Virus record (IMG/VR): IMGVR_UViG_3300009129_001089
Length of the DNA: 64,000 nt
Strand: one strand, 5' to 3'
Source: a virus
The position numbers and the translations under genes are program-made. Position 1 is the stretch's first letter; every line of letters starts with the position of its first letter. This document shows positions 15,344 through 60,227 of the stretch, piece by piece. Below the pieces are notes generated by a model, which saw nothing but the letters and a program-made list of their open reading frames with translations, made no database searches and was not told the DNA's origin.

Positions 15344-15710
15344 GTAACTCCTTTTCTTCTATTGAACCATCTGAGTATTCGTACTCTACAAACTCTTTGC
15401 CGTCACGTGTAAATTTACGTTCAGCAATTATTTCCCATTCTTTTTCTTCTATTACAGTTTGTTTTTTTGTTTTTGTACCAGTGATTTTTTCTTCTAAATC
15501 ATCTAGTGTTTTAACTTCTTCTTTAGGTGCAGTTAGTTTTTCTTTATAAAATTCTTTTTGCACTTCTTGGGCAGGTACTTCTATTTCGCCACCAGGACCA
15601 AGAATATCTCCTCTAGCATTCATAGGTATGTTACTAACGGCAACAGAAGTATCATTGGCTGCAATTAATGCGGCCATATTAATTTCTTTTCCCCTTGCTG
15701 TTTTTGTCAT
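15318..15710 (-). CDS. Hypothetical phage protein
   Basis: KTARGKEINM...NARGDILGPGG; operon tiling. Confidence 0.65.
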   Translation of the reverse strand: MTKTARGKEINMAALIAANDTSVAVSNIPMNARGDILGPGGEIEVPAQEVQKEFYKEKLTAPKEEVKTLDDLEEKITGTKTKKQTVIEEKEWEIIAERKFTRDGKEFVEYEYSDGSIEEKELHASKTTKK

Positions 15711-16231
15711 TTTAAAAACTCCTTTATGTTTAAGTCATGGTGTAAACTATTTACTTTATGCACACCTAACAGATATAAACAATAACTAGCAACAGAACTA
15801 CCTCTGCCTACACCCCAAACTATGTTATTTTCTCGCATAAAGTCTACAAAAAATATCATAAAACGTAATACATTTTTCATATTGCGTTCTTCAAACATTT
15901 GTATTTCTAATTCTACTCTATCTATTTCTTTTTGTGTTTTTGTTAATTCACGTATGTAATTATAAGGATTTATATTTTTATATTTGTCCGGTATGAACCA
16001 ATTGTCTAAACACTTTTGTATATATGCTTTTTTATCTTCGGTACTGCTTGTGAATTGCAGTTTAGGCATATCCAAATCATAATTATCTATTATACTATTA
16101 TATATCTCTAAATCTTCCGAGCGTTTACACTTAACATTTGTTAAATCAGACCCTTGATATAATAAGTCAAAAACTGCTTTATCATCGAGTATAATCTCGC
16201 CGTTATTATCTATATAATTGTCGTACCACAT
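15707..16231 (-). CDS. DnaE (family C polymerase) N-terminal palm fragment
   Basis: RVELE...VDFMRENNIVWGVGRGSSVASYCLYLLGVHKVNSLHHDLNIKEFLK aligns with DnaE RL..E...[34 protein letters not shown]. Confidence 0.85.
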   Translation of the reverse strand: MWYDNYIDNNGEIILDDKAVFDLLYQGSDLTNVKCKRSEDLEIYNSIIDNYDLDMPKLQFTSSTEDKKAYIQKCLDNWFIPDKYKNINPYNYIRELTKTQKEIDRVELEIQMFEERNMKNVLRFMIFFVDFMRENNIVWGVGRGSSVASYCLYLLGVHKVNSLHHDLNIKEFLK

Positions 16232-16458
16232 TAGCCTATTGATAATGAATCGTTATAATCTTCAGAAGATTCTAATTCTTTACGTAAACTTTCTTCAGAT
16301 TTTTCTTTGATTAATAATTCGATTTGATTAAGAATACCGGTTACTTGATCTCTAACTCTTAAGTTATTAATACCCATAAGTTTTTTTGTTAGTTCGGTTT
16401 TCTTTTCAGCAAGTTGCTCTACTGTTAGATTTGAAAAGTCTACAAAAGGATTAAACAT
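16231..16458 (-). CDS. Hypothetical protein
   Basis: ORF track; operon tiling. Confidence 0.6.
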   Translation of the reverse strand: MFNPFVDFSNLTVEQLAEKKTELTKKLMGINNLRVRDQVTGILNQIELLIKEKSEESLRKELESSEDYNDSLSIG

Positions 16459-16738
16459 TTTTAACTTTATTATGGTGCTCTTGCAATTCTTTATGTTTAT
16501 TCATTGAAGTAACTGCTAAAATCGCCCCAAACGATATGTGAAATATGGCACCTGCACCTAGTGTTAGAGGTTCCCACCTAGTTACACCTTCGGCCGCACA
16601 ATCGTGATTTGCACAATGTTCGGCCATTGCTAAATTCCACATTAAAGGAGCAATAAAAAAATCAATCAGGCAAAGAAACAAATAAACTAAACCTGCCCAA
16701 TCTCTCCAATGTCTATTAATGGTTTTGTTAATACCCAT
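16451..16738 (-). CDS. Small membrane protein, holin-like
   Basis: Two hydrophobic segments (WAGLVYLFLCLIDFFIAP; LTLGAGAIFHISFGAILAV) and a basic C-terminus. Confidence 0.5.
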   Translation of the reverse strand: MGINKTINRHWRDWAGLVYLFLCLIDFFIAPLMWNLAMAEHCANHDCAAEGVTRWEPLTLGAGAIFHISFGAILAVTSMNKHKELQEHHNKVKNV

Positions 16739-16752
16739 ATTACCTCTATTTT

Positions 16753-16989
16753 TTATCCATAGGGCCTTTTTTCCTTATTTAATATTATATTATCTTCATC
16801 TACACATTGTCGATAAGGATGTTTATAGTCAGTATTCCACCCTGCTCTAGTACCTCTTTGTAGTCCCCATCGATTCTTTTCCCAATATCCATAACAACCA
16901 TCTCCATTTGAATTTGTGAAGGTTGTACAACTACTAATAACAAAAATCCATATTGTTATCATTATTAAACCCCATAATGATATTCTCAT
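16753..16989 (-). CDS. Putative lipoprotein
   Basis: Hydrophobic signal ending ISSC. Confidence 0.5.
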   Translation of the reverse strand: MRISLWGLIMITIWIFVISSCTTFTNSNGDGCYGYWEKNRWGLQRGTRAGWNTDYKHPYRQCVDEDNIILNKEKRPYG

Positions 16990-17118
16990 AGTTTTGTTTA
17001 TACCTTATAACTTAATTTGCATTAATGCTTTTTCTTTTATTTGACTATTTTTTTCCTTTAGAATTTAAATTTTTTCTTTAATTTCTTTGGCCATGATAAT
17101 TTCCTATCTATATATCAT

Positions 17119-17835: not shown

Positions 17836-18248
17836 ACATCTCCGTCTAATCTATTTTCGCTACGTTCAGCGGTAAAATGTCCTTCAGGAAACCTTGCTTT
17901 AAGTTTATTCGCATTAATTTCTAATACTTCATTAGGATCAACATTTAATGCTGTACAAGCATTGGCCCAATACCATGCTACATCACCTAATTCTTTTATT
18001 AGTCTTGTGCGGATTCCCTCATCTAAAGTTTTTCCTTGGAACAAAACTTTTTTCACTACCTCAGTGAACTCACCGCCCTCTGATACTAAACCAAATGCGG
18101 CTGTTAATAGTCTTGGTATATTAATATTACCTTGTATATGTGCATCGGATGCTTCTAATTCTGCTAGTCTATGCAAAAAAGAAGTATACACTTTTGATTC
18201 GTCACTTGTAATAGAATCTACAAATTTTCGATATTCATCTAATTTCAT
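17832..18248 (-). CDS. MazG-like NTP pyrophosphohydrolase
   Basis: GLVSEGGEFTEVVKK, ELGDVAWY, N..KL.AR; start reassigned to the ATGA overlap with a GGAG RBS. Confidence 0.88.
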   Translation of the reverse strand: MKLDEYRKFVDSITSDESKVYTSFLHRLAELEASDAHIQGNINIPRLLTAAFGLVSEGGEFTEVVKKVLFQGKTLDEGIRTRLIKELGDVAWYWANACTALNVDPNEVLEINANKLKARFPEGHFTAERSENRLDGDV

Positions 18249-19900
18249 TCTTCTCCATTGAATATATTTTGTTTTAACCATTCATAATGAGTAGGTAAGG
18301 TTTTTACATACTTTAAATTTTTTGCTCTTTTTTCTGCTAACCATGTATCTAAACTACGTAACCATTCTTTTGTCTTATTAAAATCAGCATTTTGTCTAAC
18401 ATGTTGTTCTTTTATATCTCGTAAATATAATGGATTAAAATCCATTCCTGCCATAATAACACTAAGGGCTTCCTGAGGTTGAAAACTTTGATATGGATTT
18501 TCTAAAAACATATGCGGACCTAATACTTTATCTTTATAATAATTTAATGCTTCACATGCTGGAAAAATATTTCCATCATATTGTATTTCATTAGTAACAT
18601 ATTCCCAATAATCTGTGTCATTTCTTTTACAAAAGGCATAATGAAACATTATAAAAGATGCAAATGCCATATCTGCATGTATCCACGAATTAAAACTTTG
18701 TTTTAAATATCCTGTTACATTTTCACCATTATCGCCCATTTCTAGAGCATTACAAATATTTGTTATATTTTTATGGGTAAGTAATAATCCTGTACTTTCT
18801 AATGGTTCAATAAATCCACAACTTAATCCTACTGCTATAACATTTTTACACCAAGGTTCTTGCCTAATACCAGTTTTCATATCTATATGTAAAATATCTC
18901 GTATTGGTTCTTTTCCTGCAATAGGTTTTCTATGCTTTAACAAATATTCTCTAAATTCTTTTTCTGCTTCGTCCTTGGAAATAAAATCAGAACAATAAAC
19001 ATATCCTGTACCAATTCTATCATATAAAGGAATATTCCAACACCAACCAGCATTCATTGTGGTTGCATTAGTATTAGTTTCCATTTCTACATTTTTATCT
19101 GTATATGAAATAGATGTTGCTAATGCTTTATCATTAATTAATATATCACTAAATGAATTAAAAGGAACATTTAAAACTTTTTCTTGAAGAACACTATTAA
19201 AACCTGTACAATCAACAAAAAGATCTGCAGAATATTTTTCTTCACTTCCTTCTAATTTTAAATAATCTATATAACCATTTTCTTTTTGTACTGCATTTGT
19301 GTAGGTACCTAAAACATGTTTAACTCCTCGCGGTTCACAATAATGTAACCTCAACCACTCTCCAAATTTAGAGGCGTCAAAATGATACGCCCTATCTGTT
19401 GCAACTCCACTACGCATTCCTGCAAGAGATGTTGTTTGAAAATTATAAAAAAACTTATCTTCATTTAAAGTAAATTTATTATGATCTATTAATTCAATTG
19501 TATCCCAAAGAAACTCAGCATATTCTGTAGGAGGAGTATTACATAGTAATTTTCGTTGAAACCATTGATCTTTTCTTTTAAGAGGGGATTGTTCTTCTAC
19601 ATATCTAGGATAAAAACCAAAGGGATAATGAAAGCGAGTTCCTTTACCATCCCAATTTGTAAAATCTATTGATAATTTATATGTTGCTTTACAAAAAGGC
19701 ATCCAGTCGGTGTCTTTTATGTCTAACATTTTTAAAAAATCATTTATTTCTGCTAAAGTGCTTTCGCCAACACCTATGGTGTTTATATTTGCAGATTCAA
19801 TTAACGTAATATCTTTATTTGGGAATCTACTAATAAGACCAGCGGCAGTCATCCAACCGGATGATCCTCCGCCTAATATTATAATTTTATTGATTTGCAT
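18245..19900 (-). CDS. Flavin-dependent (tryptophan) halogenase-like protein
   Basis: GGGSSG, IGVGEST, ATYK (catalytic Lys), AYHFDA, GWCWNIP, FIEPLESTG. Confidence 0.9.
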   Translation of the reverse strand: MQINKIIILGGGSSGWMTAAGLISRFPNKDITLIESANINTIGVGESTLAEINDFLKMLDIKDTDWMPFCKATYKLSIDFTNWDGKGTRFHYPFGFYPRYVEEQSPLKRKDQWFQRKLLCNTPPTEYAEFLWDTIELIDHNKFTLNEDKFFYNFQTTSLAGMRSGVATDRAYHFDASKFGEWLRLHYCEPRGVKHVLGTYTNAVQKENGYIDYLKLEGSEEKYSADLFVDCTGFNSVLQEKVLNVPFNSFSDILINDKALATSISYTDKNVEMETNTNATTMNAGWCWNIPLYDRIGTGYVYCSDFISKDEAEKEFREYLLKHRKPIAGKEPIRDILHIDMKTGIRQEPWCKNVIAVGLSCGFIEPLESTGLLLTHKNITNICNALEMGDNGENVTGYLKQSFNSWIHADMAFASFIMFHYAFCKRNDTDYWEYVTNEIQYDGNIFPACEALNYYKDKVLGPHMFLENPYQSFQPQEALSVIMAGMDFNPLYLRDIKEQHVRQNADFNKTKEWLRSLDTWLAEKRAKNLKYVKTLPTHYEWLKQNIFNGEE

Positions 19901-19919
19901 TAATTAGTTTTAAATTATA

Positions 19920-21011: not shown

Positions 21012-21017
21012 AAATTC

Positions 21018-21338: not shown

Positions 21339-21339
21339 A

Positions 21340-21723: not shown

Positions 21724-21739
21724 ATAATTCCTTGTTAAA

Positions 21740-29473: not shown

Positions 29474-30029
29474 AAGGTAGTTTTTCTATTTTTCTATAAT
29501 TTCTACATCTTCCGAATTCATGTATTGCCATTCCACCAATTCGTCTAAATTGGATATTGGGAAAGGAATGAAAGGTCCAGAGAAGTTGTCTTGTGGTAGC
29601 AGATTCCACTGAGAAGTGGCGTTCTGAGCCTCTACTACAATAATGGAGAGATCCTTCGTAGATATTTCTGTATTCTTCTTCTCCGCCAATGTCAAATCCT
29701 ATAAGATATATTATATTTGGTAATTGCGTTGCGGCATAATAACATGCTAATGCTCCACAATTCCATTTTTTCCATTTATTATTTGTTTCGATATGTGTCG
29801 CCGAAGGACAACTATATTTATTCGGTGAAATTACTGTATGTGCTTTTGAATAACCACTTACATGAATTTCATTGCACATTCTATCATCAACACAAAAAAG
29901 AATGTCAGGTTGAAATTCTCTATATATTGCATTACATCCGTATACTATATAATCTTTTTTTAGTTGCCAAAGATCTATATTTTTTCTACTAACACCATTT
30001 CCGACAACTATAATATCATACTGTTTCAA
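29454..30029 (-). CDS. Rossmann-like transferase (DUF115/GT29-like)
   Basis: VVGNGVSR, YGCNAIYR, VD, IYLIGFD. Confidence 0.6.
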   Translation of the reverse strand: MKQYDIIVVGNGVSRKNIDLWQLKKDYIVYGCNAIYREFQPDILFCVDDRMCNEIHVSGYSKAHTVISPNKYSCPSATHIETNNKWKKWNCGALACYYAATQLPNIIYLIGFDIGGEEEYRNIYEGSLHYCSRGSERHFSVESATTRQLLWTFHSFPNIQFRRIGGMAIHEFGRCRNYRKIEKLPYENKNN

Positions 30030-30324
30030 TTTCGACGTTTAGAGGATGGCCTTTAGATCTTGCCAAATGAGTAGTTTCTAATGCTTTTTGTTCGGCTATT
30101 TCATAAAAAAACACACCAGCAGTTCCTTTACCTTTTTCATGAATATCTATCATTATCTTTTCTGCGGCTTCTTTTGAATGATGAAAAATAGCCATTAATG
30201 CTTCTACAACAAATTCCATTGGTGTAAAATTATCATTAATAAAAATGACTTGATATTTTTCGGGTTCTTTTAAATTTTGAACTGTTTTTGTATCTTTTTC
30301 AACTATAGTTTCAACATCAGGCAT
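30016..30324 (-). CDS. clpS: ClpS N-end-rule adaptor
   Basis: YQVIFINDNFTPMEFVV, IHEKGKG, EIAEQK, HPL. Confidence 0.93.
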   Translation of the reverse strand: MPDVETIVEKDTKTVQNLKEPEKYQVIFINDNFTPMEFVVEALMAIFHHSKEAAEKIMIDIHEKGKGTAGVFFYEIAEQKALETTHLARSKGHPLNVEIETV

Positions 30325-30357
30325 GAGCAAACCTTTTTTTATATTTAGTTAATATGA

Positions 30358-30383
30358 ATGCGGTGCCAGTTTTGACACCGCAT
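30358..30383 (-). terminator. Stem-loop downstream of hsp20
   Basis: ATGCGGTGTCA-AAAC-TGGCACCGCAT hairpin; weak U-tail. Confidence 0.6.
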
Positions 30384-30393
30384 ATAAAGTTGC

Positions 30394-30855
30394 TTAATTA
30401 ACCGTGATAGGAATTACCTTAGGCTTTTCTTCCTCAGGAATTTCCTGTTCTAAATCAATAGTCAACATGCCATTTTTAAGGGTTGCATCCTTAACTAGCA
30501 CATGTGGACCTAAACGAAAAGTTCGCTCAAAAGAACGGTTAGCAATACCACGATGAGCAAAATGATCTTTGTCATCATTTTCTTTACTTTCAATTTTACC
30601 TTTAACTGTAAGATTGCGTTCTTTTTGTGAAACTTCTATATCATCTTCACCAAAGCCAGCAATGGCCATTGAAATTACCCATTTACCGTCATCAAGTTGC
30701 TCGATGTTGTAGGGTGGATACCCTGTAGACGAACCTGTATATGTGTTAGAAAACTGCTCTAAGTCTCTAAACATACGGTCCATTCCAACCGTAAACGGTG
30801 TTAGTGAAGTAATGAAATCGCTAAGATTTTCGGTTGTGAGGTGTCTATGTGTCAT
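30394..30855 (-). CDS. Small heat shock protein (Hsp20/IbpA family)
   Basis: YPPYNIE, AIAGF, HRGIANRSFER, NGMLTIDL, PEEEKP; start ATG 30855 after AAGGAGA. Confidence 0.93.
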   Translation of the reverse strand: MTHRHLTTENLSDFITSLTPFTVGMDRMFRDLEQFSNTYTGSSTGYPPYNIEQLDDGKWVISMAIAGFGEDDIEVSQKERNLTVKGKIESKENDDKDHFAHRGIANRSFERTFRLGPHVLVKDATLKNGMLTIDLEQEIPEEEKPKVIPITVN

Positions 30856-30914
30856 AATTTTCTCCTTTTTTATAAGCAAGACAGAGTTAGATTAACCCAT
30901 TATGGCATTAATCT
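30853..30914 (-). promoter_or_regulatory. ROSE-like RNA thermometer in the hsp20 5' UTR
   Basis: UCUUGCUU-AUAAAA-AAGGAGA pairs over the SD with a bulged G; upstream hairpin 30889-30914. Confidence 0.65.
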
Positions 30915-30936
30915 TCTCCTCATATTATTTATCACT

Positions 30937-30965
30937 ATTATAACATGGTATAATGATAAAGTCAA
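30937..30965 (-). promoter_or_regulatory. Sigma70-type promoter TTGACT-17-TATAAT, followed by GATAAATA
   Basis: Minus strand ttgact-ttatcattataccatgt-tataat. Confidence 0.8.
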
Positions 30966-31174
30966 TAATTTTTTATTCTACCTTCATATAATTTTTCCAA
31001 GTTTCGTTCTATACGACGAATTGCTTGAGCTTTAAGTCTGCGCCTTTTCTTTGACGGTTTTTCATAGGATTGTCGGTCCCTACATTCTTTTAACGTGCCT
31101 TCGGCATTAATTTTTTTCTTTAATAATTTAATTGCTTTTTCTGCATTATTATTTCTTACTTCAATTGTTAACAT
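30962..31174 (-). CDS. rpsU: Ribosomal protein bS21
   Basis: IEVRNNNAEKAIKLLKKK..EG..E..RQSYEKPS.KRR. Confidence 0.88.
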   Translation of the reverse strand: MLTIEVRNNNAEKAIKLLKKKINAEGTLKECRDRQSYEKPSKKRRRLKAQAIRRIERNLEKLYEGRIKNY

Positions 31175-31716
31175 TTTAAAATTGCTACGATACTTGAACC
31201 GACAAATTTAGGCTCTGAAAGGAAATCTGTTTTCAAACTTTTCGATAATCGTTCAAAAAGTTCTAATCCGTGCTCTTTGTATATATACCGTTCGCGACCT
31301 TTAAATCGAACTACAATTTTTACTTGATCACCTTTATCTAAAAACTTTTTAATTTTGTTTGCTTTAACTTCAAAATCATGGTTATCAATTTTTGGTCTAA
31401 ATTGCATTTCTTTTAACTCAGTCCGAGTTGCACGAGCATTTTTTGCTAGAGCTTTCTTCCTTTGTTGTTCTTTATATACGTATTTATTTAAATCCACAAT
31501 TTTTGCAACCGGTGGATCTGCTTTTTCAGATACAACTACAACCTCTAATTCCCGTTCACGAGCAATTGATATGGCTTTTCTAGTCTCCATAACTCCCAAT
31601 TGTTCGCCCTTTTCATCTATAAGCCGTAACATAGGGTGGCTTATATAATTACTTCGTCTGTTGTTTTTTCCCGTAAACGAGGAATGGTTCCTGTTGTTTC
31701 GTGATCGTGTCTTCAT
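31168..31716 (-). CDS. infC: Translation initiation factor IF3
   Basis: [47 protein letters not shown]. Confidence 0.92.
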
Positions 31717-42204: not shown

Positions 42205-42480
42205 TTATTTGTTTTTTAGGAGTTGATCGACAGCGGATATTTTTACAGGAATTAAATTTGTTCTATAAATTGCTTTCCATAATTCATTGGCTCCGCCTAC
42301 CCGCCAATTACCATAATAAACAAGCGGAGCCTTATCTGCATTGTGTTTTTCTTTAAATTCTTTTTTTGGTATATCTATGCCAATACGAATTTCATCATAT
42401 TCGACTCCTCGTTCTTCCATTATTATTTTTGCATGGTCACATAATTTACAATTATCAATAGTGTAAATTGTTACATTCAT
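42205..42480 (-). CDS. Glutaredoxin/NrdH-like redoxin
   Basis: CKLC, AP, VGG; directly downstream of the RNR. Confidence 0.8.
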   Translation of the reverse strand: MNVTIYTIDNCKLCDHAKIIMEERGVEYDEIRIGIDIPKKEFKEKHNADKAPLVYYGNWRVGGANELWKAIYRTNLIPVKISAVDQLLKNK

Positions 42481-44816
42481 GCAACTTCTTTTAATAATGT
42501 TGTCTTAGGATCTTCTTCTTCTAATGCCCATTCTTTTTGTTCTTCATCAAAATCAATAGGACATCCACCTGGTGCTACACCACAATCAACATGTTCTCTA
42601 CCTATATCTTCTGTCATTGCAACTGCAATTGCTCTGCTAATTTCTTCATATTTAAATTTAGAAACTGCTTCTTCTGGTTGATATTCATATGCAGAAATAT
42701 CTGCTTGTGGCATTACAGAACATGCTCTTACAGTAGATTGGTGCTGTTTAATCATATCTTTAAAATGCTTATAATCTACAATTTCAGGTACATACTTAAG
42801 AGTATAACTAATTTGATTGCCAACATCTTCTGCTAAAGTCCCATCTTCATTGACACCTTGAATCCAATATTTTTCCCCTAACTTTAACCATTGATATTGT
42901 TCTTGCGGTGTTGCTTCACCTGCTGTAACAAGATTTTCTTCCAAACCTAATCCAGCAATAACTGGTTCTGTCGGAAACCCTACAATAGTAGTTCCACTAT
43001 ACTGTACTAATTCTTTTGTAGGATAACCATTTTTCTTATATTGCTCTACCAATGGATCGTCATTTCTAAACTGTACCCATCGCATATACCATGCTAATGC
43101 TGGTAAATGCCAACCTTCAGTAAGACCAAATAATTTACTTGTAGTTCCGGCAGGTTTAATGGTAGTCATTGTATGAGGAATTGTTTGTCCTAAATAAGCA
43201 GAATATTTTTTTGCTTCGTCTTTGACAGCTCTATTAAAACGTGCCATTGCCATCCAAAAATCTTTAGATTTTTCTTCATTTATTAAATCTCTAAATCCTA
43301 ATTTAAAAAATTTCCAGGCAAACTCTTGCACACCTGTTAATCCTACTCCTATCCTATTTGTACGTTCTACTTCTTTACCATATATGCTATTCATGCCGTT
43401 TACACGCAATAAAGCCCTCGTAGCAACACGGAAAGCCTCCTCTGCTTCATCTAATGTGTCTGCATGATAAGGTACTACGTCTGCAATAACACAAAATCCG
43501 CCTAATACATTTAATGCAATTTCTCCACACGGATTTGTAATTGTATGAAACTTCTTTTTCTTTGCACGTTTCGCAAGACGACTCATTAATATTTGTGTAT
43601 CTTCTCTAAGTTGGTACTTAGGACTACCGACATAATCACCACGATTTAAGTCATCCCATCCTTCGTCGTTTTGTACTAACATATCAGAGTTAAGTATGCC
43701 TGGTTCGCCTGTACCATCAGCATAAGCGGCTTCTGTAAGCAGTTTAAACACAGCTCTAGCATGTTTTGTTAAGTCATCATTATATTTGGCATCACCACGT
43801 TTTACATTAAGCCTATTCCAAAAATCTTTATCTGTAGTAACAGAATTATTACTTGACCATAAAAAGCCCATTGGAGGATACGCAGAATCTTTATTATATT
43901 GAACTATATCTTCCATGTTTAATCCAATATATTCAATAGGTCTTTTAACTGTAATAAAATTCAATACAGTTTTATCCTTCCATGTTTTAGTACTCATCCT
44001 AGCGGCCCGTCGAGCGCCTCCTACAAGTACACATTCAGCCATGTAATGATCTACATACATCGACTGTCGCCATGGCTCCATGCCAGCATCTTTAATAGTT
44101 GCACATTTTTCAAAGGCATTTAATAAAGATACAGGACCACTTGCTGGTCTATTCTGCATCCCCCCAATGGGTGTTCCTTTTGCTCGTACTTTACTAAAAT
44201 CTAATACAAGCATTTTATCTTTATGAATTTTTTCAAAAGCGGCATTTTCCCAAATTTCTAATGCCTGGGCCCATCCTTCTCTACTATCTGGAATTTCATA
44301 CCAAAGAGTATTTTCTCCTTGACCGTATTTGTGTTTTCCATCTCGCAATGATGTATGTGCTGAATAATCAAAATCTGGATGACTTTCGTCTAATACACAT
44401 CGTAATTGGGGTGCATTATTCCAATCAACCAACATCATGTCATCATCATAACATCGTCCAACCCCTGATCCGTTTAACAGTAAATAAAAAAGTATAAAAC
44501 TTGTGCTTGATGTAGCACAATTTGTAAACACTTCCATATTTCGTTCTGGCTGTTTTTCATCACCATGTTGTAAGTGTCTGCCACTCATTAACAGACTTGC
44601 TTTTGCTATATGTTTTTTTAATAATCTAAATTCTCTATCTTTATCTTCTTCTTTAGGGCATAACAAACTATTACCCATTGCTACTCTATTAGCAACATCA
44701 TGCCATGTTTCCCATTCTCCGTTTGGTTTTTTTCTTAATACTGTTCGTTCGGCAACGGCTTGTCCCATACCAGGATGAAATGACCTGACATTCGGAAAAA
44801 AGGTTGGTTTCTTCAT
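42477..44816 (-). CDS. nrdJ: Class II (adenosylcobalamin-dependent) ribonucleotide reductase
   Basis: SGRHL, FTNC, GSGVG, DSREGW, VLVGGARRAARM, TNPCGEI, TTIKPAGT, C-terminal C...GGCP; start at MKKPT after GAGGAG. Confidence 0.88.
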   Translation of the reverse strand: MKKPTFFPNVRSFHPGMGQAVAERTVLRKKPNGEWETWHDVANRVAMGNSLLCPKEEDKDREFRLLKKHIAKASLLMSGRHLQHGDEKQPERNMEVFTNCATSSTSFILFYLLLNGSGVGRCYDDDMMLVDWNNAPQLRCVLDESHPDFDYSAHTSLRDGKHKYGQGENTLWYEIPDSREGWAQALEIWENAAFEKIHKDKMLVLDFSKVRAKGTPIGGMQNRPASGPVSLLNAFEKCATIKDAGMEPWRQSMYVDHYMAECVLVGGARRAARMSTKTWKDKTVLNFITVKRPIEYIGLNMEDIVQYNKDSAYPPMGFLWSSNNSVTTDKDFWNRLNVKRGDAKYNDDLTKHARAVFKLLTEAAYADGTGEPGILNSDMLVQNDEGWDDLNRGDYVGSPKYQLREDTQILMSRLAKRAKKKKFHTITNPCGEIALNVLGGFCVIADVVPYHADTLDEAEEAFRVATRALLRVNGMNSIYGKEVERTNRIGVGLTGVQEFAWKFFKLGFRDLINEEKSKDFWMAMARFNRAVKDEAKKYSAYLGQTIPHTMTTIKPAGTTSKLFGLTEGWHLPALAWYMRWVQFRNDDPLVEQYKKNGYPTKELVQYSGTTIVGFPTEPVIAGLGLEENLVTAGEATPQEQYQWLKLGEKYWIQGVNEDGTLAEDVGNQISYTLKYVPEIVDYKHFKDMIKQHQSTVRACSVMPQADISAYEYQPEEAVSKFKYEEISRAIAVAMTEDIGREHVDCGVAPGGCPIDFDEEQKEWALEEEDPKTTLLKEVA

Positions 44817-44856
44817 TATTTTGTTCTCCTCGAGTTTCCTCTTATTGGTTAGTTTT

Positions 44857-45519
44857 TTATTTATAATATTCTTCCAATCGTTCTGTCCATTTTTCACATT
44901 TATCTTCAAATTTTTTCCCTTCGCAAATAAATTCTTGATATTGCTTTTCTCGTGAACACATTATTATAACGATTTTATTAATCTTAGTTCCATATAATTC
45001 ATTATGGGCCAATGCATATGCACAACATTGCAAATAATAATCTTCGATCCATTCTTCTTTTTTAGGTTTAGTTGTACTTTTATAGTCCATTATTGCTGGT
45101 GTACCATCATGTACTCCAACTAAATCTGTAGTACCTGCATATAAATCGGGATAATAAAGACTTATTTCTGAGCCCCATATTTCATTTATATTAACCAATC
45201 CTTTTTCTATAACAACTTCACTCATGTCTTTGGCTAATTTATAAACAAAATTATTACCATTAGGTCGTTCTTCACCTAATATATAATTTTCTAAATGTTT
45301 ATGAAATATAGTACCTAACCCCGAGGCTTCTTTTGTTATACGATTTGCTTCTTCTTCACCAACTCGTTTTTTCCATTCTATAAGAAATGTTTTATCTTTG
45401 GTTTTATCTAAGATTGTTGTAACAGAGGGGAGATTACCAGATGGGGTATTATATAACCTTTTGCCTGAATTATTGATCCGTTTTAGAGACGGATAGTCGT
45501 ACTTCTCTATAAGATTCAT
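44857..45519 (-). CDS. PD-(D/E)XK exonuclease
   Basis: PSVTTIL, GTIFH, E, YAGTTD, DYKS, Q..AY. Confidence 0.85.
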   Translation of the reverse strand: MNLIEKYDYPSLKRINNSGKRLYNTPSGNLPSVTTILDKTKDKTFLIEWKKRVGEEEANRITKEASGLGTIFHKHLENYILGEERPNGNNFVYKLAKDMSEVVIEKGLVNINEIWGSEISLYYPDLYAGTTDLVGVHDGTPAIMDYKSTTKPKKEEWIEDYYLQCCAYALAHNELYGTKINKIVIIMCSREKQYQEFICEGKKFEDKCEKWTERLEEYYK

Positions 45520-52818: not shown

Positions 52819-52836
52819 AATATTTAGCTAAATATT
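52819..52836. promoter_or_regulatory. Perfect 18-bp palindrome carrying back-to-back CTAAATA late-promoter-like motifs
   Basis: AATATTTAGCTAAATATT between divergent genes. Confidence 0.65.
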
Positions 52837-52839
52837 GTT

Positions 52840-53121: not shown

Positions 53122-54094
53122 TATTTCGTTTTAAATTATCATACTCTACTGGTACTCCATCTTTAATACAACATTCTTTATGCCATTCTGATGGTTCTGA
53201 TTGTATCCTACATGGAGCACATGGAGGTGCATACCAAAGATTATAGTTATTTTTGTATCCAAATACTTGTGGAGAAGTACAACCAAATATAACTATACCC
53301 TTTTTGTTATATCCTGCACTTGCATGTCCTAAAAAACTATCAGGAATAATATGAAATTTTGACCATTTTAATAATGAAATTGCCTGTCTAATTGTTGTTT
53401 TGTCCATAAAAGATACATAATTATCCCATTCTCCTAAATCCATTCCATCACCATTATTACCTTTTGTTGTACCGATACCTATAAATGTTAGTTCAGGAAA
53501 ATCTTTAAAAAGTCTAGGATAAATTTCTATTGGAATTTGCTTACCTTGGTTATTTGGCCAAGGATCTCGTAATACTGTTGGTTGAATAATTACAGGATTT
53601 TTAATAAGTTCTAATTTATTATACGCCCATACATTTTCATCATTTGTTAAATGGATATTTATATCATGATAATTGCAATCAGAGACTCCCATTAACTCGG
53701 CGGCTAAATCTATTCTATGCATTGGTGTTGCATAAAACATTTCTTGATCATACGGAAAAGGATTATAAACAACAACCTTTTTGTATACTCGCAACTCCTT
53801 TAAATGTGTTGTCCAATAATTCCATGTATAGACATTATTAATATAAGGATTATGTTGTATTATTTCTTCTGTCCATTCGCCAATATCTGAATTATCGGCA
53901 TTTCGTAGTGCTATATCTACTATGTGCAATTCAGATAATTTACGTAATATAGGCAAACACATTAATACATCACCTATACCACCAAATATTTTAAGTAATA
54001 TTCGATTTGCTTCAGAATTTGCAGTATTCAATTGATCACATTCTACATTTGTTGTAAAATAATTAGCATGTTTTAATTGTTCTTCTTGTTTCAT
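53072..54094 (-). CDS. Glycosyltransferase family 9-like
   Basis: GGIGDVLM.LP, NPYI, PDSFLGHAS, IFG.T, CAPC. Confidence 0.8.
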   Translation of the reverse strand: MKQEEQLKHANYFTTNVECDQLNTANSEANRILLKIFGGIGDVLMCLPILRKLSELHIVDIALRNADNSDIGEWTEEIIQHNPYINNVYTWNYWTTHLKELRVYKKVVVYNPFPYDQEMFYATPMHRIDLAAELMGVSDCNYHDINIHLTNDENVWAYNKLELIKNPVIIQPTVLRDPWPNNQGKQIPIEIYPRLFKDFPELTFIGIGTTKGNNGDGMDLGEWDNYVSFMDKTTIRQAISLLKWSKFHIIPDSFLGHASAGYNKKGIVIFGCTSPQVFGYKNNYNLWYAPPCAPCRIQSEPSEWHKECCIKDGVPVEYDNLKRNIKKLIAEELSGVLDPE

Positions 54095-55482
54095 TCCATG
54101 CCTTTTAACATATTTCTTAGTCTATCACTATGATCTACAGTATCTTCGACTACCTGATTTTCTGTTAATCCAGATTTAACTTTTGAAAGAGTTGATTTCT
54201 TTTTAAGTGTAGCATATATATCTTCTGTTGGGCTTACTTCTTCTCCTTCAGGTAAATCTGATATTCGTAATGTACTACCATCAAATTCTAAATCTATTTT
54301 TTGTCCTACACCACTACTAGATCTAGTTTTCATAAATTGTATTTGTATTCGTCCACGCTCTCGCATTGCTCGAGAACTGAATATACCAATAACATTATCT
54401 GCTGTTTGTATCTTACTAAGTCCACCTGCAATATGCGAATGATCAAATTCTATTTCATCTACTGCTCCTCTGTTTAATTGAGATGCGGTTGCAAATAATA
54501 AATCTAATTCTACTGCTAAATTTCTAAGTTCCTCACTAACAAACTTATCTTTAATAAACAAATCACTCGGAGGTACTTTCTTTTGTGCAGGCATCATTAA
54601 ATCTAAATAATCTATTACTATAGCATCAGGTCGTATACCAGTTTGTACTGTATATTCTTTTAAATATGCTCGTATATCGTTCACTGTACATCCACTTACT
54701 AATTGTACTATTTGAATTGCTCCTGCTTTTTTCTTTTGCATTTTAACACGTAAATCTACATCATCTAAATTTTTATATAATTCCTTTGTAGAATAACCAG
54801 TGTTCATTGCATCCATTCGCATAGCAGTCAAATTTTCACTTAGTTCCAAACTAACATACACAACATTTAATTTCATTAACGACCAATTAACTGCAAGATT
54901 TTGTAAGAATATACTTTTACCTGCGCCACTACCTCCTGCAAATATATTAAGTTCGCCCTTATTAAATCCGCCAAATAATTTAGCATCCATTGATTCCCAA
55001 CCAGTACTTGTTCCGCCATTTAATGTTTTTAAATTACGCAATCTATCGCCAGGATCAACATAATAATCTGTACCTAAATTTTTTGCTAAACTAACTTGGA
55101 CAGCATCTTTAATTATTTTTTCTACTGCTCCAAATTGATTTTCTTCCAATAAATCCGTTGAACCAAGAATTGCATTTGCTAATGCTTTATGTTTACAAAA
55201 TTGTTCAAAATCATCTAAAAACCAATCTTGATGTCGTTCGTCGACATCTTTAACTAATGTAAATTCTATTCCTGCTTCTGCTTTAATTTGTTCTGGTGTA
55301 GGTAATGCAGAATACCCCGACACATGTTCTTGTATAAATTTTACACTTTTTCTAAATTTTCTATCAAAGTATTCTGCATCTAAAATTGCTTGGCATCTAG
55401 CATACAATTCAGAATCTGATAATAAAAACTCTACATAAAGTTTTTGCATATCTTCTGTATATTCTTTTACTTCTTCAGCCAT
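54091..55482 (-). CDS. Replicative DnaB/gp41-like helicase
   Basis: GGSGAGKS, SLE, IDYLDLM, TASQLNR, KTRSS. Confidence 0.92.
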   Translation of the reverse strand: MAEEVKEYTEDMQKLYVEFLLSDSELYARCQAILDAEYFDRKFRKSVKFIQEHVSGYSALPTPEQIKAEAGIEFTLVKDVDERHQDWFLDDFEQFCKHKALANAILGSTDLLEENQFGAVEKIIKDAVQVSLAKNLGTDYYVDPGDRLRNLKTLNGGTSTGWESMDAKLFGGFNKGELNIFAGGSGAGKSIFLQNLAVNWSLMKLNVVYVSLELSENLTAMRMDAMNTGYSTKELYKNLDDVDLRVKMQKKKAGAIQIVQLVSGCTVNDIRAYLKEYTVQTGIRPDAIVIDYLDLMMPAQKKVPPSDLFIKDKFVSEELRNLAVELDLLFATASQLNRGAVDEIEFDHSHIAGGLSKIQTADNVIGIFSSRAMRERGRIQIQFMKTRSSSGVGQKIDLEFDGSTLRISDLPEGEEVSPTEDIYATLKKKSTLSKVKSGLTENQVVEDTVDHSDRLRNMLKGME

Positions 55483-56554: not shown

Positions 56555-57480
56555 TCGAGTTCCTTTTTAAAATCTTTATTTGATAATAGATATTCTACTA
56601 CCATTTTATGTGCCTCATTATTTAAATGTGTACCGCGATCAGTTACATAATCTGTAACTACTTTTTTTGCACCAATTTTTTTATTTAAAAATGTTTCAAT
56701 ATCTTGCGACTGTATTTCTTTATCACGTGTTTTTGTTTTCCATTTTTCGTTTAATATATCTATTTCTAATGATAAAACATCTTTCCTAGTTTCAGGATCT
56801 ACATATTGTAAATCTTTAATTGTTCCAAAAGGAGGATTCCAATAAAAATACCATATGTTATGTTGTAGAGATAACATATTTAATATATTAAACATCATAT
56901 AATTTTCATCTAAAAAATAAACAGAAGCAAAATGATCCATTATAATTGTCGTAATTGCTTGGCCATATACTTCCTTCATTTCATCAGCACCTTCGGCACA
57001 CCAATCTTTGCCCCAAATAAATTGACTATGTCCTGTCCCAGGTGTATCAATATGAATTGGTTGACATGGAAGAAAAGATGCACAATAATTTGGTAGATAT
57101 TTTTTATCTATATCTGTTCGTTGCCCGTGATATGTTTTAGTATCATATGTATATACTTGTATATTTTTATTAACATTAAATAATTTTTTTACATATTGTA
57201 ATACACCAAAGGTAAATCTATGCCATTGTGTAGTTTGTACAATATACATATCACAAGGATTATTCTCTATTGCATATGTTAAATTTTCTAATATATCTTT
57301 ATTACCGCCTCCTAATACTGGAAATAATGTAAAATTATGTTGAGGGTATAATTCTGCTAATATAGCACCATATCCTTTATTAAGGTTATCAGTTTTGTTT
57401 TCATTTAATTCATATAAGGTATCTGCTAATGTTTTGCCTGTGCCAAATGAATGCGAACAACCAAAAATACCTATTTCCAT
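56545..57480 (-). CDS. SGNH/GDSL-like hydrolase
   Basis: IFGCSHS (block I), GGGN, D..THLN..AH. Confidence 0.6.
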   Translation of the reverse strand: MEIGIFGCSHSFGTGKTLADTLYELNENKTDNLNKGYGAILAELYPQHNFTLFPVLGGGNKDILENLTYAIENNPCDMYIVQTTQWHRFTFGVLQYVKKLFNVNKNIQVYTYDTKTYHGQRTDIDKKYLPNYCASFLPCQPIHIDTPGTGHSQFIWGKDWCAEGADEMKEVYGQAITTIIMDHFASVYFLDENYMMFNILNMLSLQHNIWYFYWNPPFGTIKDLQYVDPETRKDVLSLEIDILNEKWKTKTRDKEIQSQDIETFLNKKIGAKKVVTDYVTDRGTHLNNEAHKMVVEYLLSNKDFKKELEWK

Positions 57481-58463
57481 AATTGACTTTTTACTTTTAT
57501 TTTTGTTTTATTTGTCTCTACAAAATCTAATATACTTTTAAGAGTAAATGGTCTTCCAAATTTGTTTACTGCATCAGCACAATCTTTTGCTTCATACCAT
57601 GGAGGAAAGCTCACAGGCCAATTATAATATACTGCTTGCCTTACTACATCTATACCTGCTTTGTCTTGGTCTGGAACAAAAATAACTTCTTTACCTAATT
57701 GATTTATTATTTGTGCTTGTTGATAATTTATATTACTACCACCTATCGCTACACCATCAATTGCAATTGCATCAAACGGTCCTTCTGTAACTAATACATA
57801 TTTTCTATTATTTTTTTGGGCATCTAAATTAAATACAAAATCTTTAGGCTGTTGTTGATAGTACTTAGGATATTTATATTGTTTTTCGCCTACCCATCTT
57901 GCAGTAAAACCGACTACTTTACTTTTGTACTTATATGGTAATATAATTCTATTTTGCATTTGGCCTATTACTGTATTACTATAATGCCAATCTGCTAAGT
58001 CTATTAACCCTCTTTCGCTAATATATTCTAATGCTTTATTAAACAATGGATTAAATTCCCATTGATCTAGTGGTTTAGAACCAGTAGGTAAATTTGTTTC
58101 TGGCCAATTTATTTTGTATTCGGGTGTTTCTTCTTTTACTGGTTGAACCAAATCTGCTTCTCGCATTGTTTCCAATGTAAGACGTTGTATATCAGATCTA
58201 GGTATGCCTAAATATTTTAATAATTTTTTAAATTTATCAGAAAATCTATCTGGATGTTTCCAACCAGTCTTGTAATTACAATTAAAACAATGATAAACGA
58301 TGCCTCCGTCAGGAGTAAACATGACCCCTCCTCTGTGTCGTCTATCAGGTCTTGCTTGTCCAAAATGTATACAACATGGACAATTTATTGTTAACCAACC
58401 AGATGGGGTTTGTTTTGTATCTATAGGTAAGTTTGATCTAACTACATCCAGAACTATACTCAT
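57471..58463 (-). CDS. DNA primase (zinc finger + TOPRIM)
   Basis: NCPCC..HCFNC, VTEGPFDA, PDQDKAG, KD. Confidence 0.9.
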   Translation of the reverse strand: MSIVLDVVRSNLPIDTKQTPSGWLTINCPCCIHFGQARPDRRHRGGVMFTPDGGIVYHCFNCNYKTGWKHPDRFSDKFKKLLKYLGIPRSDIQRLTLETMREADLVQPVKEETPEYKINWPETNLPTGSKPLDQWEFNPLFNKALEYISERGLIDLADWHYSNTVIGQMQNRIILPYKYKSKVVGFTARWVGEKQYKYPKYYQQQPKDFVFNLDAQKNNRKYVLVTEGPFDAIAIDGVAIGGSNINYQQAQIINQLGKEVIFVPDQDKAGIDVVRQAVYYNWPVSFPPWYEAKDCADAVNKFGRPFTLKSILDFVETNKTKIKVKSQLWK

Positions 58464-58472
58464 ACATATAGT

Positions 58473-59264
58473 TTAACTTCTATAAAGAATTTTGTCAACC
58501 GTTCCTGTATTAGTTGAATCGGGATCGTGTGCAAATCGAACCCAATTTAAATTTGCTGTAAAGTTAATAGGTTCAAGTTTTGTAGTAGCCTCATCATATG
58601 GTTTATGTTCGGTACCAGAACCTATTGTAATAGGAAACCACCCTGTGGCTGTTTGTTCAATTGATCCTTCAACATGAAGATTACCAATATAATTTGTTAG
58701 GTATGCAACAAATGTATGAAGACCTTTAGTATCAGGAGAAATAGATGCAACTTCTATTGCTGAACTGTATTCTTTAGATCCTGTTCCTCCAGGAGTTGTA
58801 AATGTTATTATTGCCGATTCTGAAAATGCCGGAATCGGACCATCTTTAACTTCAACTGCTACTTTGACATTGTTTGCTCTATCTGCAAATAATGTTAATG
58901 TTTCACCATCAACATTTTCAAATGTTAATGATAAATCATAAAACCCTGATTCGTTACCTATTAAATCTTTATTTCTAATTGTTAGTTTTGCTTGACCTGT
59001 AGTATTATCTATTTCTTCCACTAGTCTAGAAAATAGTAAATTGCCCGTTGTGTGATTTACTAAATATGCTGTAAGTGTACCAGATGCTAAACTAACAGGT
59101 TTTCGATCTTTGTCTTTGACATAGAAATTTAAGACGCTGTCGACGCCTTTATAGATTTTAATAATTTTATTATTCATAGGAGGATTCACCGTTTTGTTAA
59201 TATCGTCGGCCAACATAAAATGGATGTCAGCATCATACTTAAATAGTGTTAGCGTTTCTGCCAT
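58473..59264 (-). CDS. Putative virion structural protein (beta-rich)
   Basis: IYKGVD..L.F.VK..DRKP; ends KILYRS; GATAAATA upstream. Confidence 0.6.
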   Translation of the reverse strand: MAETLTLFKYDADIHFMLADDINKTVNPPMNNKIIKIYKGVDSVLNFYVKDKDRKPVSLASGTLTAYLVNHTTGNLLFSRLVEEIDNTTGQAKLTIRNKDLIGNESGFYDLSLTFENVDGETLTLFADRANNVKVAVEVKDGPIPAFSESAIITFTTPGGTGSKEYSSAIEVASISPDTKGLHTFVAYLTNYIGNLHVEGSIEQTATGWFPITIGSGTEHKPYDEATTKLEPINFTANLNWVRFAHDPDSTNTGTVDKILYRS

Positions 59265-59302
59265 GCGTTATCTCACTTAAATATATTTATCGCAAATTAA
59301 TT

Positions 59303-59683
59303 ATGGAATTAGAAACAGAAATTAAAGAGTTTTTAGATAAGTTCCCATTTCTCAGTTTATGTAGATATGGAACGAACGAGTACATTGGAATAGTACAAAA
59401 TGTTAGCAATAATATAGCCTCTGTATACGTATATAATAAATTAAAAGAAAAAGACGAAAAGAAATTATTCTTAGACCTAGGCGAAGAATGGTGGTGGGAA
59501 TCAAATAGAACAATTCCCATTAACATTATATTAGGTCAACGATGGGCACCGTTTAAACCTATTTTAACTACATTTACTATTAAAGATTTTGAAATATTAT
59601 ACGGGCCTACCATTTCATTACAAAATGTAATACAAAAACGAGTTAAACGACGCCAGATTCAGTTAATTCGCAAAGCGAATTAA
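59303..59683 (+). CDS. Hypothetical phage protein (WWWESNR motif), plus strand
   Basis: Start at ATG 59303 (MELETE); TAAATA at 59278-83; overlaps the dnaE fragment by 41 nt. Confidence 0.75.
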   Translation: MELETEIKEFLDKFPFLSLCRYGTNEYIGIVQNVSNNIASVYVYNKLKEKDEKKLFLDLGEEWWWESNRTIPINIILGQRWAPFKPILTTFTIKDFEILYGPTISLQNVIQKRVKRRQIQLIRKAN

Positions 59684-60227
59684 GTTGAACTATAATCGCA
59701 TAAGCATAACTCACAGCATGGGATTTTTTAAAATAATATGAATTATCTTTTGGTTTGGACCATACTTGCTCTTGTATTGTTTGCCACGATTCTCCCAACA
59801 ATTGTCTCTTTGCTGGTCGTATAATCGCAAGCACCATAGCAAGTTGATCTATAGATTTAGGTTGCATTTGAGCAACAATATCATAATGATCATGAATATG
59901 AAATAATTGTTCGACTATTTCTTTATGAAGTAATAAATCCCAGTCTGGTTCTCTTTCTAATAATCTATTTAAATGTGCTTCGTTACTTACATATTCATAT
60001 ATGTTTACATTAAGCAAATCTATTTTAAAATAACCTAAATCTTCTGCTTCTTTATAATTTATTGTACTTAAATTAGTGCTAGGATCATACGGCATATCAT
60101 GAAAATATACACCTGTATTATGCTTTTTTACTGAATCTGTTATAATACTTGCTGGTATGTGTTTTAATTTAGTTAACACATCATCTCTATTTTTTAAGTC
60201 AATATCAATATCTGTCATTTTTTTCAC
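59643..60227 (-). CDS. DnaE (family C polymerase) catalytic C-terminal fragment
   Basis: TDIDID, KHNTGV, GYFKIDLL, LAIIRPA, YYFKKSHAVSYA match DnaE PDxDxD, HAGGV, GLVKxDxL, ALxRPG, FNKSHxxAY. Confidence 0.88.
   Translation of the reverse strand: MKKMTDIDIDLKNRDDVLTKLKHIPASIITDSVKKHNTGVYFHDMPYDPSTNLSTINYKEAEDLGYFKIDLLNVNIYEYVSNEAHLNRLLEREPDWDLLLHKEIVEQLFHIHDHYDIVAQMQPKSIDQLAMVLAIIRPAKRQLLGESWQTIQEQVWSKPKDNSYYFKKSHAVSYAYAIIVQLNSLCELTESGVV

What the first reader, a model, noticed from the sequence alone, without database searches (positions are those of the whole stretch)
15707..60227. Minimal, intein-less, two-gene DnaE-like nucleotidyltransferase split across 43 kb
Seen: ORF 15707-16231 ends ...GVGRGSSVASYCLYLLGVHKVNSLHHDLNIKEFLK*, and ORF 59643-60227 begins (MKK)MTDIDIDL. 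Established: in bacterial DnaE these segments are contiguous (GPGRGS...[22 protein letters not shown]), so the halves complement each other almost to the residue. The C half has all three catalytic Asp (DxD, KxD) and the FxKSH..Y motif; the N half has the GRGS nucleotide-binding motif. Together they are about 370 aa. PHP, most of thumb and fingers, HhH, OB and clamp-binding regions appear absent. Neither half carries split-intein ends, and both are intact and translationally coupled to neighbours, which argues against decay. Inference: a non-covalent heterodimeric mini-Pol III core too stripped to be a replicase. It could act in priming, end-tailing or other template-poor nucleotidyl transfer, or counter-defence. 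Similar fragments may exist in related jumbo phages; novelty is unverified.
Basis: partly seen in the sequence, partly recalled or inferred. Interest (0 to 1): 0.85.

Follow-up and report, generated by a model that had tools for sequence, protein, structure and literature searches.

The report
Two-gene mini DnaE polymerase
Two small genes 43 kb apart in this uncultured marine jumbo phage encode the two halves of a stripped-down relative of the bacterial replicative DNA polymerase. The pair is real, conserved and almost certainly works as one enzyme, but the family was already described by computation in 2021 and its job is still untested.

Summary
ORF 15707-16231 (-) is the first part of a DnaE-type palm and carries the GRGS loop. 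ORF 59643-60227 (-) is the rest of the palm, with all three catalytic Asp, plus a compacted fingers core.

Both are intact, overlap their neighbours' starts or stops, and are under purifying selection (dN/dS 0.05-0.19). The catalytic residues are invariant across 97 diverse C-half homologs.

Nine complete or large relatives show no PHP domain. Five of them were also scanned for HhH and extra fingers pieces and have none. All seven complete or near-complete relatives carry a family B polymerase.

New here:
- Three independent clusters of natural single-chain N+C fusions (375-376 aa).
- An AlphaFold model of one fusion (pLDDT 86.9, pTM 0.85) superposes on DnaE as one body (Z 19-21).
- The fusion clade is nested among split forms.
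- The N half nearly always ends at ...EF(L/M)(K/R).

The core interpretation is supported: an intein-less two-subunit mini Pol III that is not the replicase. It is not new. Iyer et al. 2021 (PMC7824862) described this "minimal", split Pol III alpha of group 2.2 jumbo phages, and this scan has met it on other genomes.

The function is unknown. I favour short-patch templated DNA synthesis at the fork.

The parts
15707..16231 (-). N half of the mini Pol III alpha (174 aa). Residues ~98-174 match E. coli DnaE 316-392 and include the invariant W-G-V-G-R-G-S-S loop. It ends ...EFLK. Residues 1-~95 have no sequence match and a lower-confidence fold.
   Evidence: (phrog_11127, 7.7e-49). dN/dS 0.05-0.19.
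59643..60227 (-). C half of the mini Pol III alpha (194 aa from GTG 60227; 191 aa from ATG 60218, the start that gene callers use). Numbering from the GTG start: DxD at D6/D8, third Asp in K68-I-D70, R137-P138 motif, K167-S-H170...Y motif. Thumb and most of the fingers are deleted.
   Evidence: (phrog_11778, 8.8e-74). dN/dS 0.08-0.15.
59303..59683 (+). Conserved small opposite-strand gene (about 126 aa, phrog_11637, function unknown), convergent with the C-half 3' end and overlapping it by 41 nt. A gene of this size and orientation follows the C half in all relatives examined and also follows the fused genes. Context; a possible partner.
   Evidence: Look-alike search uninformative.
57471..58463 (-). 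DnaG/Toprim-type DNA primase, two genes downstream of the C half (context).
   Evidence: (phrog_47, 1.3e-34).
54091..55482 (-). DnaB-like replicative helicase in the same module (context).
62480..63955 (-). UvsW-like DEAD/ResIII helicase that opens the conserved module holding the C half (context).
58473..59264 (-). Homolog of a protein found by mass spectrometry in PA5oct virions and annotated as structural in 121Q. It always lies between the C half and the primase (context).
15005..15710 (-). Conserved 130-aa gene (start overlaps the N-half stop, ATGA) and a GroES-like gene just downstream of the N half, as in PA5oct and G007 (context).

Best explanation
The two ORFs are the two subunits of the 'minimal split Pol III alpha' of group 2.2 jumbo phages (Rak2, 121Q, PA5oct, Atu_ph07 and relatives).

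Shown:
- The N half supplies the first part of the DnaE palm, with the GRGS loop.
- The C half supplies the strands carrying the three catalytic aspartates and a compacted fingers core (RP and KSH..Y motifs).
- The break falls between the GS loop and the DxD, inside the Pol-beta-type nucleotidyltransferase fold.
- Both genes are conserved, co-occur, are under purifying selection, and have been re-joined in nature.

Inferred:
- Neither half can be active alone, because the active site is split between them.
- The two polypeptides associate non-covalently into a polymerase core of roughly 43 kDa with a composite active site.
- With no PHP, thumb, clamp-binding, HhH or OB parts, the enzyme should be distributive and non-proofreading. 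It probably depends on other replisome proteins to hold DNA.
- A family B polymerase is the replicase.

Most likely role (inferred, about 50% of my belief): short-patch templated DNA synthesis at the phage fork. That means either extending primase-made primers before hand-off to the family B enzyme, as B. subtilis DnaE and eukaryotic Pol alpha do, or gap filling and repair.
For: Homology of both halves to DnaE by sequence and fold.

Invariant D6, D8, K68, D70, P138 in 97 C halves, and invariant W-G-V-G-R-G-S-S in 37 N halves.

dN/dS 0.05-0.19.

Co-occurrence:
- About 96 phage records carry each half, with matching host genera.
- All five complete isolate genomes have exactly one strong N-half match and a C half.
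- IMG/VR contigs G001-G003 and the complete, terminal-repeat-bounded G006 have both.

Natural fusions P0183, P0272, P0273, in N-to-C order with a ~10-residue linker, from ENA and Logan samples, sitting at the C-half locus.

Fusion model: pLDDT 86.9, pTM 0.85. One superposition on Mtb, Taq and E. coli DnaE and on PolC gives Z 21.1, 20.1, 15.4 and 17.7. The next fold scores Z 3.9. Minimal Pol-beta-type transferases align to model residues ~103-278, a range that spans the junction..

Replication context conserved from alpha- and gammaproteobacterial phages to marine contigs.

Family B polymerase in all seven complete or near-complete relatives.

Same description in Iyer et al. 2021 (PMC7824862).
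Against: No biochemical or genetic data exist for any member; none was found in searches.

The heterodimer itself was not modelled. Only a natural fusion from a lineage 32-42% identical to the window's proteins was folded, and its C part rested on 13 sequences.

The two genes sit in different modules, in reversed order, 30-230 kb apart. Co-expression is therefore assumed. The PA5oct omics paper gives no gene-level timing.

Without a thumb or a duplex-binding domain, it is unclear how primer-template DNA is held.

The window's own genome could not be searched for a family B polymerase or for other DnaE pieces; none lies in the window.

The specific role is analogy plus gene neighbourhood only.
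Confidence: 0.85

Rival explanations
1. A two-subunit nucleotidyltransferase that is not a templated DNA polymerase. Examples: terminal transferase or end-tailing, synthesis of a nucleotide signal or decoy for counter-defence, or RNA 3'-end addition.
For: Only the minimal Pol-beta-type core plus a small helical part remains. The thumb and all duplex- or ssDNA-binding domains are gone. The core also resembles CCA-adding and terminal uridylyl transferases, weakly (Z 2.5-3.9).
Against: It keeps DnaE-specific fingers motifs (RP, KSH..Y), invariant or nearly so. In DnaE these act in templated dNTP selection (established knowledge). Fold similarity to DnaE/PolC is far higher (Z 12-21) than to any non-templated transferase. 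The C half lies between the recombination helicase and the primase/DnaB genes in every relative.
Confidence: 0.08
2. The two proteins act separately. The C half alone is a tiny polymerase or Mg-dependent enzyme, and the N half has its own role (for example NTP binding) in the chaperone/protease/MazG module where it lies.
For: The genes are never adjacent in split genomes. They lie in different modules 30-230 kb apart. One 543-kb contig shows an N half only.
Against: That contig lacks the entire UvsW/primase/DnaB module, so it is incomplete or chimeric. Every other complete genome has both. Nature has fused them in DnaE order. The break separates the GS loop from the catalytic Asp within one fold.
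Confidence: 0.04
3. These are two pieces of an ordinary multi-piece replicase whose other DnaE domains (PHP, thumb, clamp-binding, OB) are encoded elsewhere as further, very divergent genes.
For: The C half itself escapes Pfam's palm model, so HMM scans can miss divergent pieces. Several conserved neighbours have no known function.
Against: No PHP match in nine complete or large relatives. No HHH_6 match and no additional fingers or palm match above a family cut-off in the five isolate genomes. All complete relatives have a full family B polymerase. Natural fusions add nothing beyond N+C. Iyer et al. reached the same conclusion.
Confidence: 0.03
4. These are decaying remnants of a captured host dnaE gene.
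For: Small size and loss of most domains.
Against: dN/dS 0.05-0.19. Invariant catalytic residues across more than 400 clusters at 50% identity. Conserved termini. Conserved synteny across phages of distant hosts.
Confidence: 0.005

Closest known systems
Minimal split DNA polymerase III alpha of group 2.2 jumbo phages (Iyer, Anantharaman, Krishnan, Burroughs, Aravind 2021, Viruses 13:63, PMC7824862)
   Same: Everything that defines it:
- Two separate, distantly located genes.
- An N-terminal NTP-binding part and a C-terminal Mg- and template-binding part.
- No other Pol III domain in the genome (shown in relatives).
- A family B polymerase alongside (shown in relatives).
Both halves fall in the PHROGs built from those phages (11127, 11778). 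Identity to PA5oct is 45% (N half) and 54% (C half). The whole 44-kb interval is colinear with PA5oct.
   Different: Nothing of kind. This is an uncultured marine member with 31-35% G+C. Added here: derived single-chain fusions, the fixed break point, dN/dS values, a fold model, and the family's abundance in ocean metagenomes.
Bacterial C-family replicases DnaE and PolC (for example E. coli DnaE 2HNH/5FKV, Taq 3E0D, Mtb DnaE1 5LEW, G. kaustophilus PolC 3F2B)
   Same: Pol-beta-type palm with GS loop, three catalytic Asp, RPG and FNKSH..Y fingers motifs, in the same order. Fold Z 12-21.
   Different: About 365 residues in two chains, against 1100-1450 in one. No PHP, thumb, outer fingers, clamp-binding/HhH, OB or tau-binding parts. 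Not the phage's main replicase.
Split-intein DnaE of cyanobacteria (DnaE-n/DnaE-c, joined by protein trans-splicing)
   Same: A DnaE encoded by two distant genes.
   Different: No intein halves at the break. From memory, the cyanobacterial break lies far downstream in the fingers, whereas here it is inside the palm. Those genes make a full-length replicase after splicing. Here the halves must stay non-covalent.
B. subtilis DnaE and eukaryotic Pol alpha as primer-extending polymerases (functional analogy only)
   Same: A second, non-proofreading polymerase working beside the main replicase. Here it is encoded next to the primase and helicase genes.
   Different: No experimental link. The analogy rests on gene neighbourhood and domain loss.
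Split family B polymerase of chimalliviruses (2026 preprint PMC13648687; only its title and abstract were seen)
   Same: Another jumbo-phage polymerase made from separate polypeptides.
   Different: Different polymerase family, different phage group, and it is the replicase.

Membership tests
C-family DNA polymerase catalytic core (DnaE/PolC) | Pol-beta-type palm with the G-S nucleotide-binding loop | tested here: met
   N half: PF07733 E 5.5e-11. Aligns to E. coli DnaE 316-392 including GRGS. GRGS invariant in 37 homologs.
C-family DNA polymerase catalytic core (DnaE/PolC) | Three catalytic aspartates (E. coli D401, D403, D555 by established knowledge) | tested here: met
   C-half D6, D8 and D70 are invariant in 97 homologs. 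They align to the Taq PDIDTDF and E. coli KFDFLG blocks.
C-family DNA polymerase catalytic core (DnaE/PolC) | Fingers motifs RPG and FNKSH..Y | tested here: met
   R137-P138 and K167-S-H170..Y align to E. coli 630-641 and 753-768. Invariant or nearly so.
C-family DNA polymerase catalytic core (DnaE/PolC) | Overall palm and fingers fold | tested here: met
   Natural fusion model: Z 21.1 (5LEW), 20.1 (3E0D), 17.7 (3F2C), 15.4 (5FKV), with 320-339 residues aligned; next fold Z 3.9. The window's C-half model finds DnaE/PolC as its top 16 Foldseek hits.
Full-length bacterial replicase DnaE | N-terminal PHP domain | tested here: not met
   Absent from both ORFs. No PF02811 match in nine complete or large relatives. 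The window's own genome could not be searched.
Full-length bacterial replicase DnaE | Thumb, clamp-binding/HhH and OB domains | tested here: not met
   Only ~57 residues lie between the DxD and the third Asp, against ~150 in E. coli. The protein ends near E. coli residue 780. No PF14579 match in five relatives.
Minimal split Pol III alpha of group 2.2 jumbo phages (Iyer 2021) | Two stand-alone proteins from distantly located genes, split between the NTP-binding and Mg/template-binding parts | tested here: met
   43.4 kb apart in the window. 30-230 kb apart in relatives. The same break point...EF(L/M)(K/R), in nearly all of 94 N halves.
Minimal split Pol III alpha of group 2.2 jumbo phages (Iyer 2021) | Sequence membership with the phage proteins that define the family | tested here: met
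   phrog_11127 E 7.7e-49 and phrog_11778 E 8.8e-74. tblastn to PA5oct, 121Q, GAP32, Atu_ph07, E 1e-22 to 1e-64.
Minimal split Pol III alpha of group 2.2 jumbo phages (Iyer 2021) | Genome also encodes a family B polymerase and no other Pol III alpha domain | tested here: inconclusive
Met in five isolate genomes and in G003 and G006. Not testable for the window's own genome, which is not held, and no family B gene lies in the window.
Split-intein trans-spliced DnaE | N-intein after the N-extein and C-intein before the C-extein | tested here: not met
   The N half stops right after EFLK. The C half begins 3-5 residues before the DxD. Natural fusions need only a ~10-residue linker.

The most novel reading that the evidence does not exclude
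The pair is an obligate heterodimer whose active site is built across two polypeptides: the GS loop from one and the three Asp from the other. It is a dedicated primer-extension polymerase that takes RNA primers from the neighbouring primase and hands short DNA stretches to the family B replicase, a Pol alpha-like step in a phage replisome. Splitting the genes between two expression modules would gate its activity in time.
Probability: 0.2. Interest if true: 0.7.

Novelty: already known. Interest (0 to 1): 0.3.

Why it matters
This is the smallest known derivative of the bacterial replicative polymerase, and its catalytic fold is cut in two. If active, it would define the minimal C-family polymerase core, give a natural two-piece polymerase, and add a second polymerase to T4-like replisomes.

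The family is very common in the ocean: at least 8000 clusters at 90% identity and 436 at 50%. No experimental work on it was found.

For this scan the value is mainly negative. The finding is real but published, and it has already been met on other genomes. The modest additions are the natural fusions, which give a ready single-chain construct for biochemistry and an argument that the termini meet in the complex.

Tried and rejected
- Searching the window's own genome was not possible; none is held.
- No near-identical record exists in the phage collection.
- The search for longer proteins with the C half gave only one TolB-domain chimera, P0121, which I discounted. The real fusions came from the exhaustive representative search.
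- Composite alignments of the fusion with many separate halves failed. MAFFT stacked the N halves onto the C part (A2, A3). After local tests, a set of 37 N halves plus 10 C halves aligned correctly (A6), so the C part of the fusion model rests on only 13 sequences.
- A true heterodimer model of the window's own two proteins could not be made.
- G007 (543 kb) looked like a genome with an N half only. A full six-frame HMM search and neighbour searches showed the whole replication module is missing, so I rejected it as evidence.
- Two dN/dS rows (L033, L041) were out of register and are discarded.
- PA5oct 'DNA polymerase III' gp270 is a DnaQ/RNase T exonuclease, not a DnaE piece, and has no homolog in the window.
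- The PA5oct omics paper gives no gene-level timing for the two genes.
- The look-alike search for the conserved opposite-strand gene was uninformative.
- The N-terminal ~95 residues of the N half remain unassigned. They could be a PHP vestige, early palm or something new. The aligner gave only range ends.
Full report
**Observation**

Both ORFs are present as described, on the minus strand. The N half (15707-16231, 174 aa) ends ...GVGRGSS...NIKEFLK. The C half (59643-60227) starts (V/M)KKMTDIDIDL. Gene callers use the ATG at 60218, giving 191 aa. In several close relatives the codon after the upstream start is a stop, so the internal ATG is probably the real start there.

The upstream gene's TAA shares a base with the N-half ATG. 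The N-half TGA overlaps the next gene's ATG, with an AAGGAG site upstream. The C-half start overlaps the preceding 2OG-Fe(II) oxygenase gene by 14-23 nt.

Along the transcribed strand the C half comes first, the reverse of the protein order.

**Homology to DnaE**

The N half matches Pfam DNA_pol3_alpha (E 5.5e-11). It aligns to E. coli DnaE 316-392, through GPGRGS to ERFL.

The C half is too divergent for single-sequence detection. A profile of 97 diverse homologs hits only DnaE chains in the PDB (E 1.5e-5), in three colinear blocks:
- DxD against Taq 460-475.
- K-x-D through RPG against E. coli 538-641.
- FxKSH..Y against E. coli 739-768.

Only ~57 residues separate the DxD from the third Asp, against ~150 in E. 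coli, so the thumb is gone. About 100 residues of the fingers are also deleted, and the protein ends near E. coli residue 780.

The window's C-half model is very confident (pLDDT 96.4). Its 16 best Foldseek matches are all DnaE or PolC.

**Is it a working gene pair?**

D6, D8, K68, D70 and P138 are invariant in the 97 C halves, and R137, K140, K167 and H170 nearly so. W-G-V-G-R-G-S-S is invariant in 37 N halves.

Against close marine relatives, dN/dS is 0.05-0.19 for the N half and 0.08-0.15 for the C half (two misregistered rows ignored).

The N half ends at ...EF(L/M)(K/R) followed by a stop in nearly all of 94 sequences. There is no room for intein pieces at either end.

**Co-occurrence**

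About 96 phage records carry each half, with matching host genera. Five further records, all Cellulophaga phages, match only the N-half query.

Five complete isolate genomes (Phosso, PA5oct, 121Q, Atu_ph07, Vibrio phage 2.275.O) each have one strong N-half match and one C half. So do IMG/VR contigs G001-G003 and the complete G006, which has direct terminal repeats.

The distance between the genes ranges from about 30 kb to about 230 kb, so the separation is old.

One 543-kb contig (G007) has an N half only. A full-sensitivity six-frame search confirmed this. The contig also lacks every homolog of the UvsW, primase and DnaB neighbours, so the replication module is simply missing and the case says nothing.

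**No further DnaE pieces**

PHP gave no hit in nine complete or large relatives. HHH_6 gave no hit in the five isolate genomes. The fingers model gave only the weak hit inside the C half itself, and the palm model gave one strong match, the N half, in each of those five genomes.

PA5oct's 'DNA polymerase III' gp270 is a DnaQ/RNase T exonuclease.

All seven complete or near-complete relatives carry a family B polymerase.

The window's own genome is not held, and no family B gene lies in the window.

**Natural fusions and the fold**

The exhaustive search of 1.84 billion representatives found 436 clusters at 50% identity, nearly all about 190 aa. One of them, P0183, is 375 aa.

Its first 180 residues are an N half (32% identity to the window's, E 5e-17). 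A linker of about 10 residues follows, then a C half.

Two more clusters, P0272 and P0273 (78-81% identical), come from other samples and another source. Two contigs show the fused gene at the C-half locus, followed by the usual small opposite-strand gene; the larger contig also carries the homolog of the 'structural' gene.

In a tree of 105 C parts (the 97 rows of A4, three fused, five extra; midpoint root), the fused clade is nested within a 0.99-supported clade of otherwise split forms. The fusion is therefore a derived re-joining, not the ancestral state.

Folded with a checked composite alignment (A6), the fusion gives pLDDT 86.9 and pTM 0.85.

One superposition on DnaE covers 320-339 of 375 residues: Z 21.1 for Mtb DnaE1, 20.1 for Taq, 15.4 for E. 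coli and 17.7 for PolC. The next fold, CCA-adding enzymes, scores 3.9.

The minimal Pol-beta-type transferases align to model residues ~103-278, a range that spans the junction. So the break cuts through the catalytic fold and the active site must be composite.

**Context**

The 44-kb interval is colinear with PA5oct. In order it holds: UvsW-like helicase, two conserved unknowns, [2OG oxygenase], C half, small opposite-strand gene, virion-associated protein, primase, DnaB helicase, exonuclease, ribonucleotide reductase, ClpX, S21, ClpS, MazG, N half, a 130-aa gene and GroES-like.

The core around the C half recurs in 121Q, Atu_ph07, Phosso, a Vibrio phage and marine contigs.

**Mechanism and rivals**

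Shown: homology, intact catalytic residues, selection, co-occurrence, re-fusion, a DnaE-like arrangement in the fusion model, and replication context.

Inferred: non-covalent assembly into one enzyme, distributive and non-proofreading synthesis, and dependence on partners for holding DNA.

I favour short-patch templated DNA synthesis at the fork, either primer extension before hand-off to the family B enzyme, or gap filling and repair. Iyer et al. suggested strand-specific synthesis or repair.

A non-templated transferase role is less likely, because DnaE-specific fingers motifs are retained and the fold match to DnaE is far stronger than to any other transferase. Independent action of the halves, hidden further pieces, and gene decay are each argued against by the tests above.

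**Novelty**

Iyer et al. 2021 (PMC7824862, sections 3.4.1 and 3.5) describe a 'phage-specific minimal version' of Pol III alpha in group 2.2 jumbo phages. [quoted passage not shown]

Many GenBank records already label one or both halves as DNA polymerase. This scan has met the C half on other genomes, and one follow-up reached the same attribution.

I found no experimental study.

Noticed in passing
window 12536-14170 and 18245-19900 (both -): Two large flavin-dependent tryptophan-halogenase family genes (PF04820, E 4e-85 and 5e-103) flank the N-half module.
   Followed up: no
window 59303-59683 (+): In a window where 94 of 104 ORFs are on the minus strand, a small plus-strand gene (phrog_11637, unknown function) overlaps the C-half 3' end by 41 nt. 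A gene of this size and orientation follows the C half in every relative examined and also follows the natural fusions. It could be a partner or regulator.
   Followed up: partly
window 30016-32881 (-): Phage-encoded ClpX (31649-32881), ribosomal protein S21 homolog (30962-31174), small heat-shock-like protein (30394-30879) and ClpS (30016-30330), colinear with PA5oct.
   Followed up: no
window 42477-44909 (-): The ribonucleotide reductase here carries the B12-dependent (class II) insertion domain, whereas PA5oct has a class Ia alpha/beta pair at the syntenic place.
   Followed up: no
PA5oct MK797984.1 217.6-221.4 kb; Atu_ph07 NC_042013.1 212.3-213.7 kb: The family B polymerase matches fall in two separate open frames in PA5oct (825 + 379 aa) and Atu_ph07 (578 + 418 aa), against about 1010 aa in one frame in 121Q, Phosso and the Vibrio phage. 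This could be a split gene, an intron or intein, or a frameshift.
   Followed up: no
IMG/VR contig IMGVR_UViG_3300024239_000011 (G007, 543,035 bp): CheckV rates it 100% complete, yet it has no UvsW, primase, DnaB or C-half homolog while carrying the MazG / N-half / GroES module. G+C is 48.7%. It is probably incomplete or chimeric.
   Followed up: partly
window 60218-60227 and loci L021, L022, L024, L026, L028, L029: The window's GTG start sits where distant relatives begin MKK-x-TDIDID. Several close marine relatives have a stop at the second codon after that position, so the start has moved to the internal ATG.
   Followed up: partly
window 38899-41319 (-): An 806-aa protein with a CBM_5_12 carbohydrate-binding module, below the Pfam cut-off (E 8e-5). 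It may be a tail fibre or host-binding protein.
   Followed up: no
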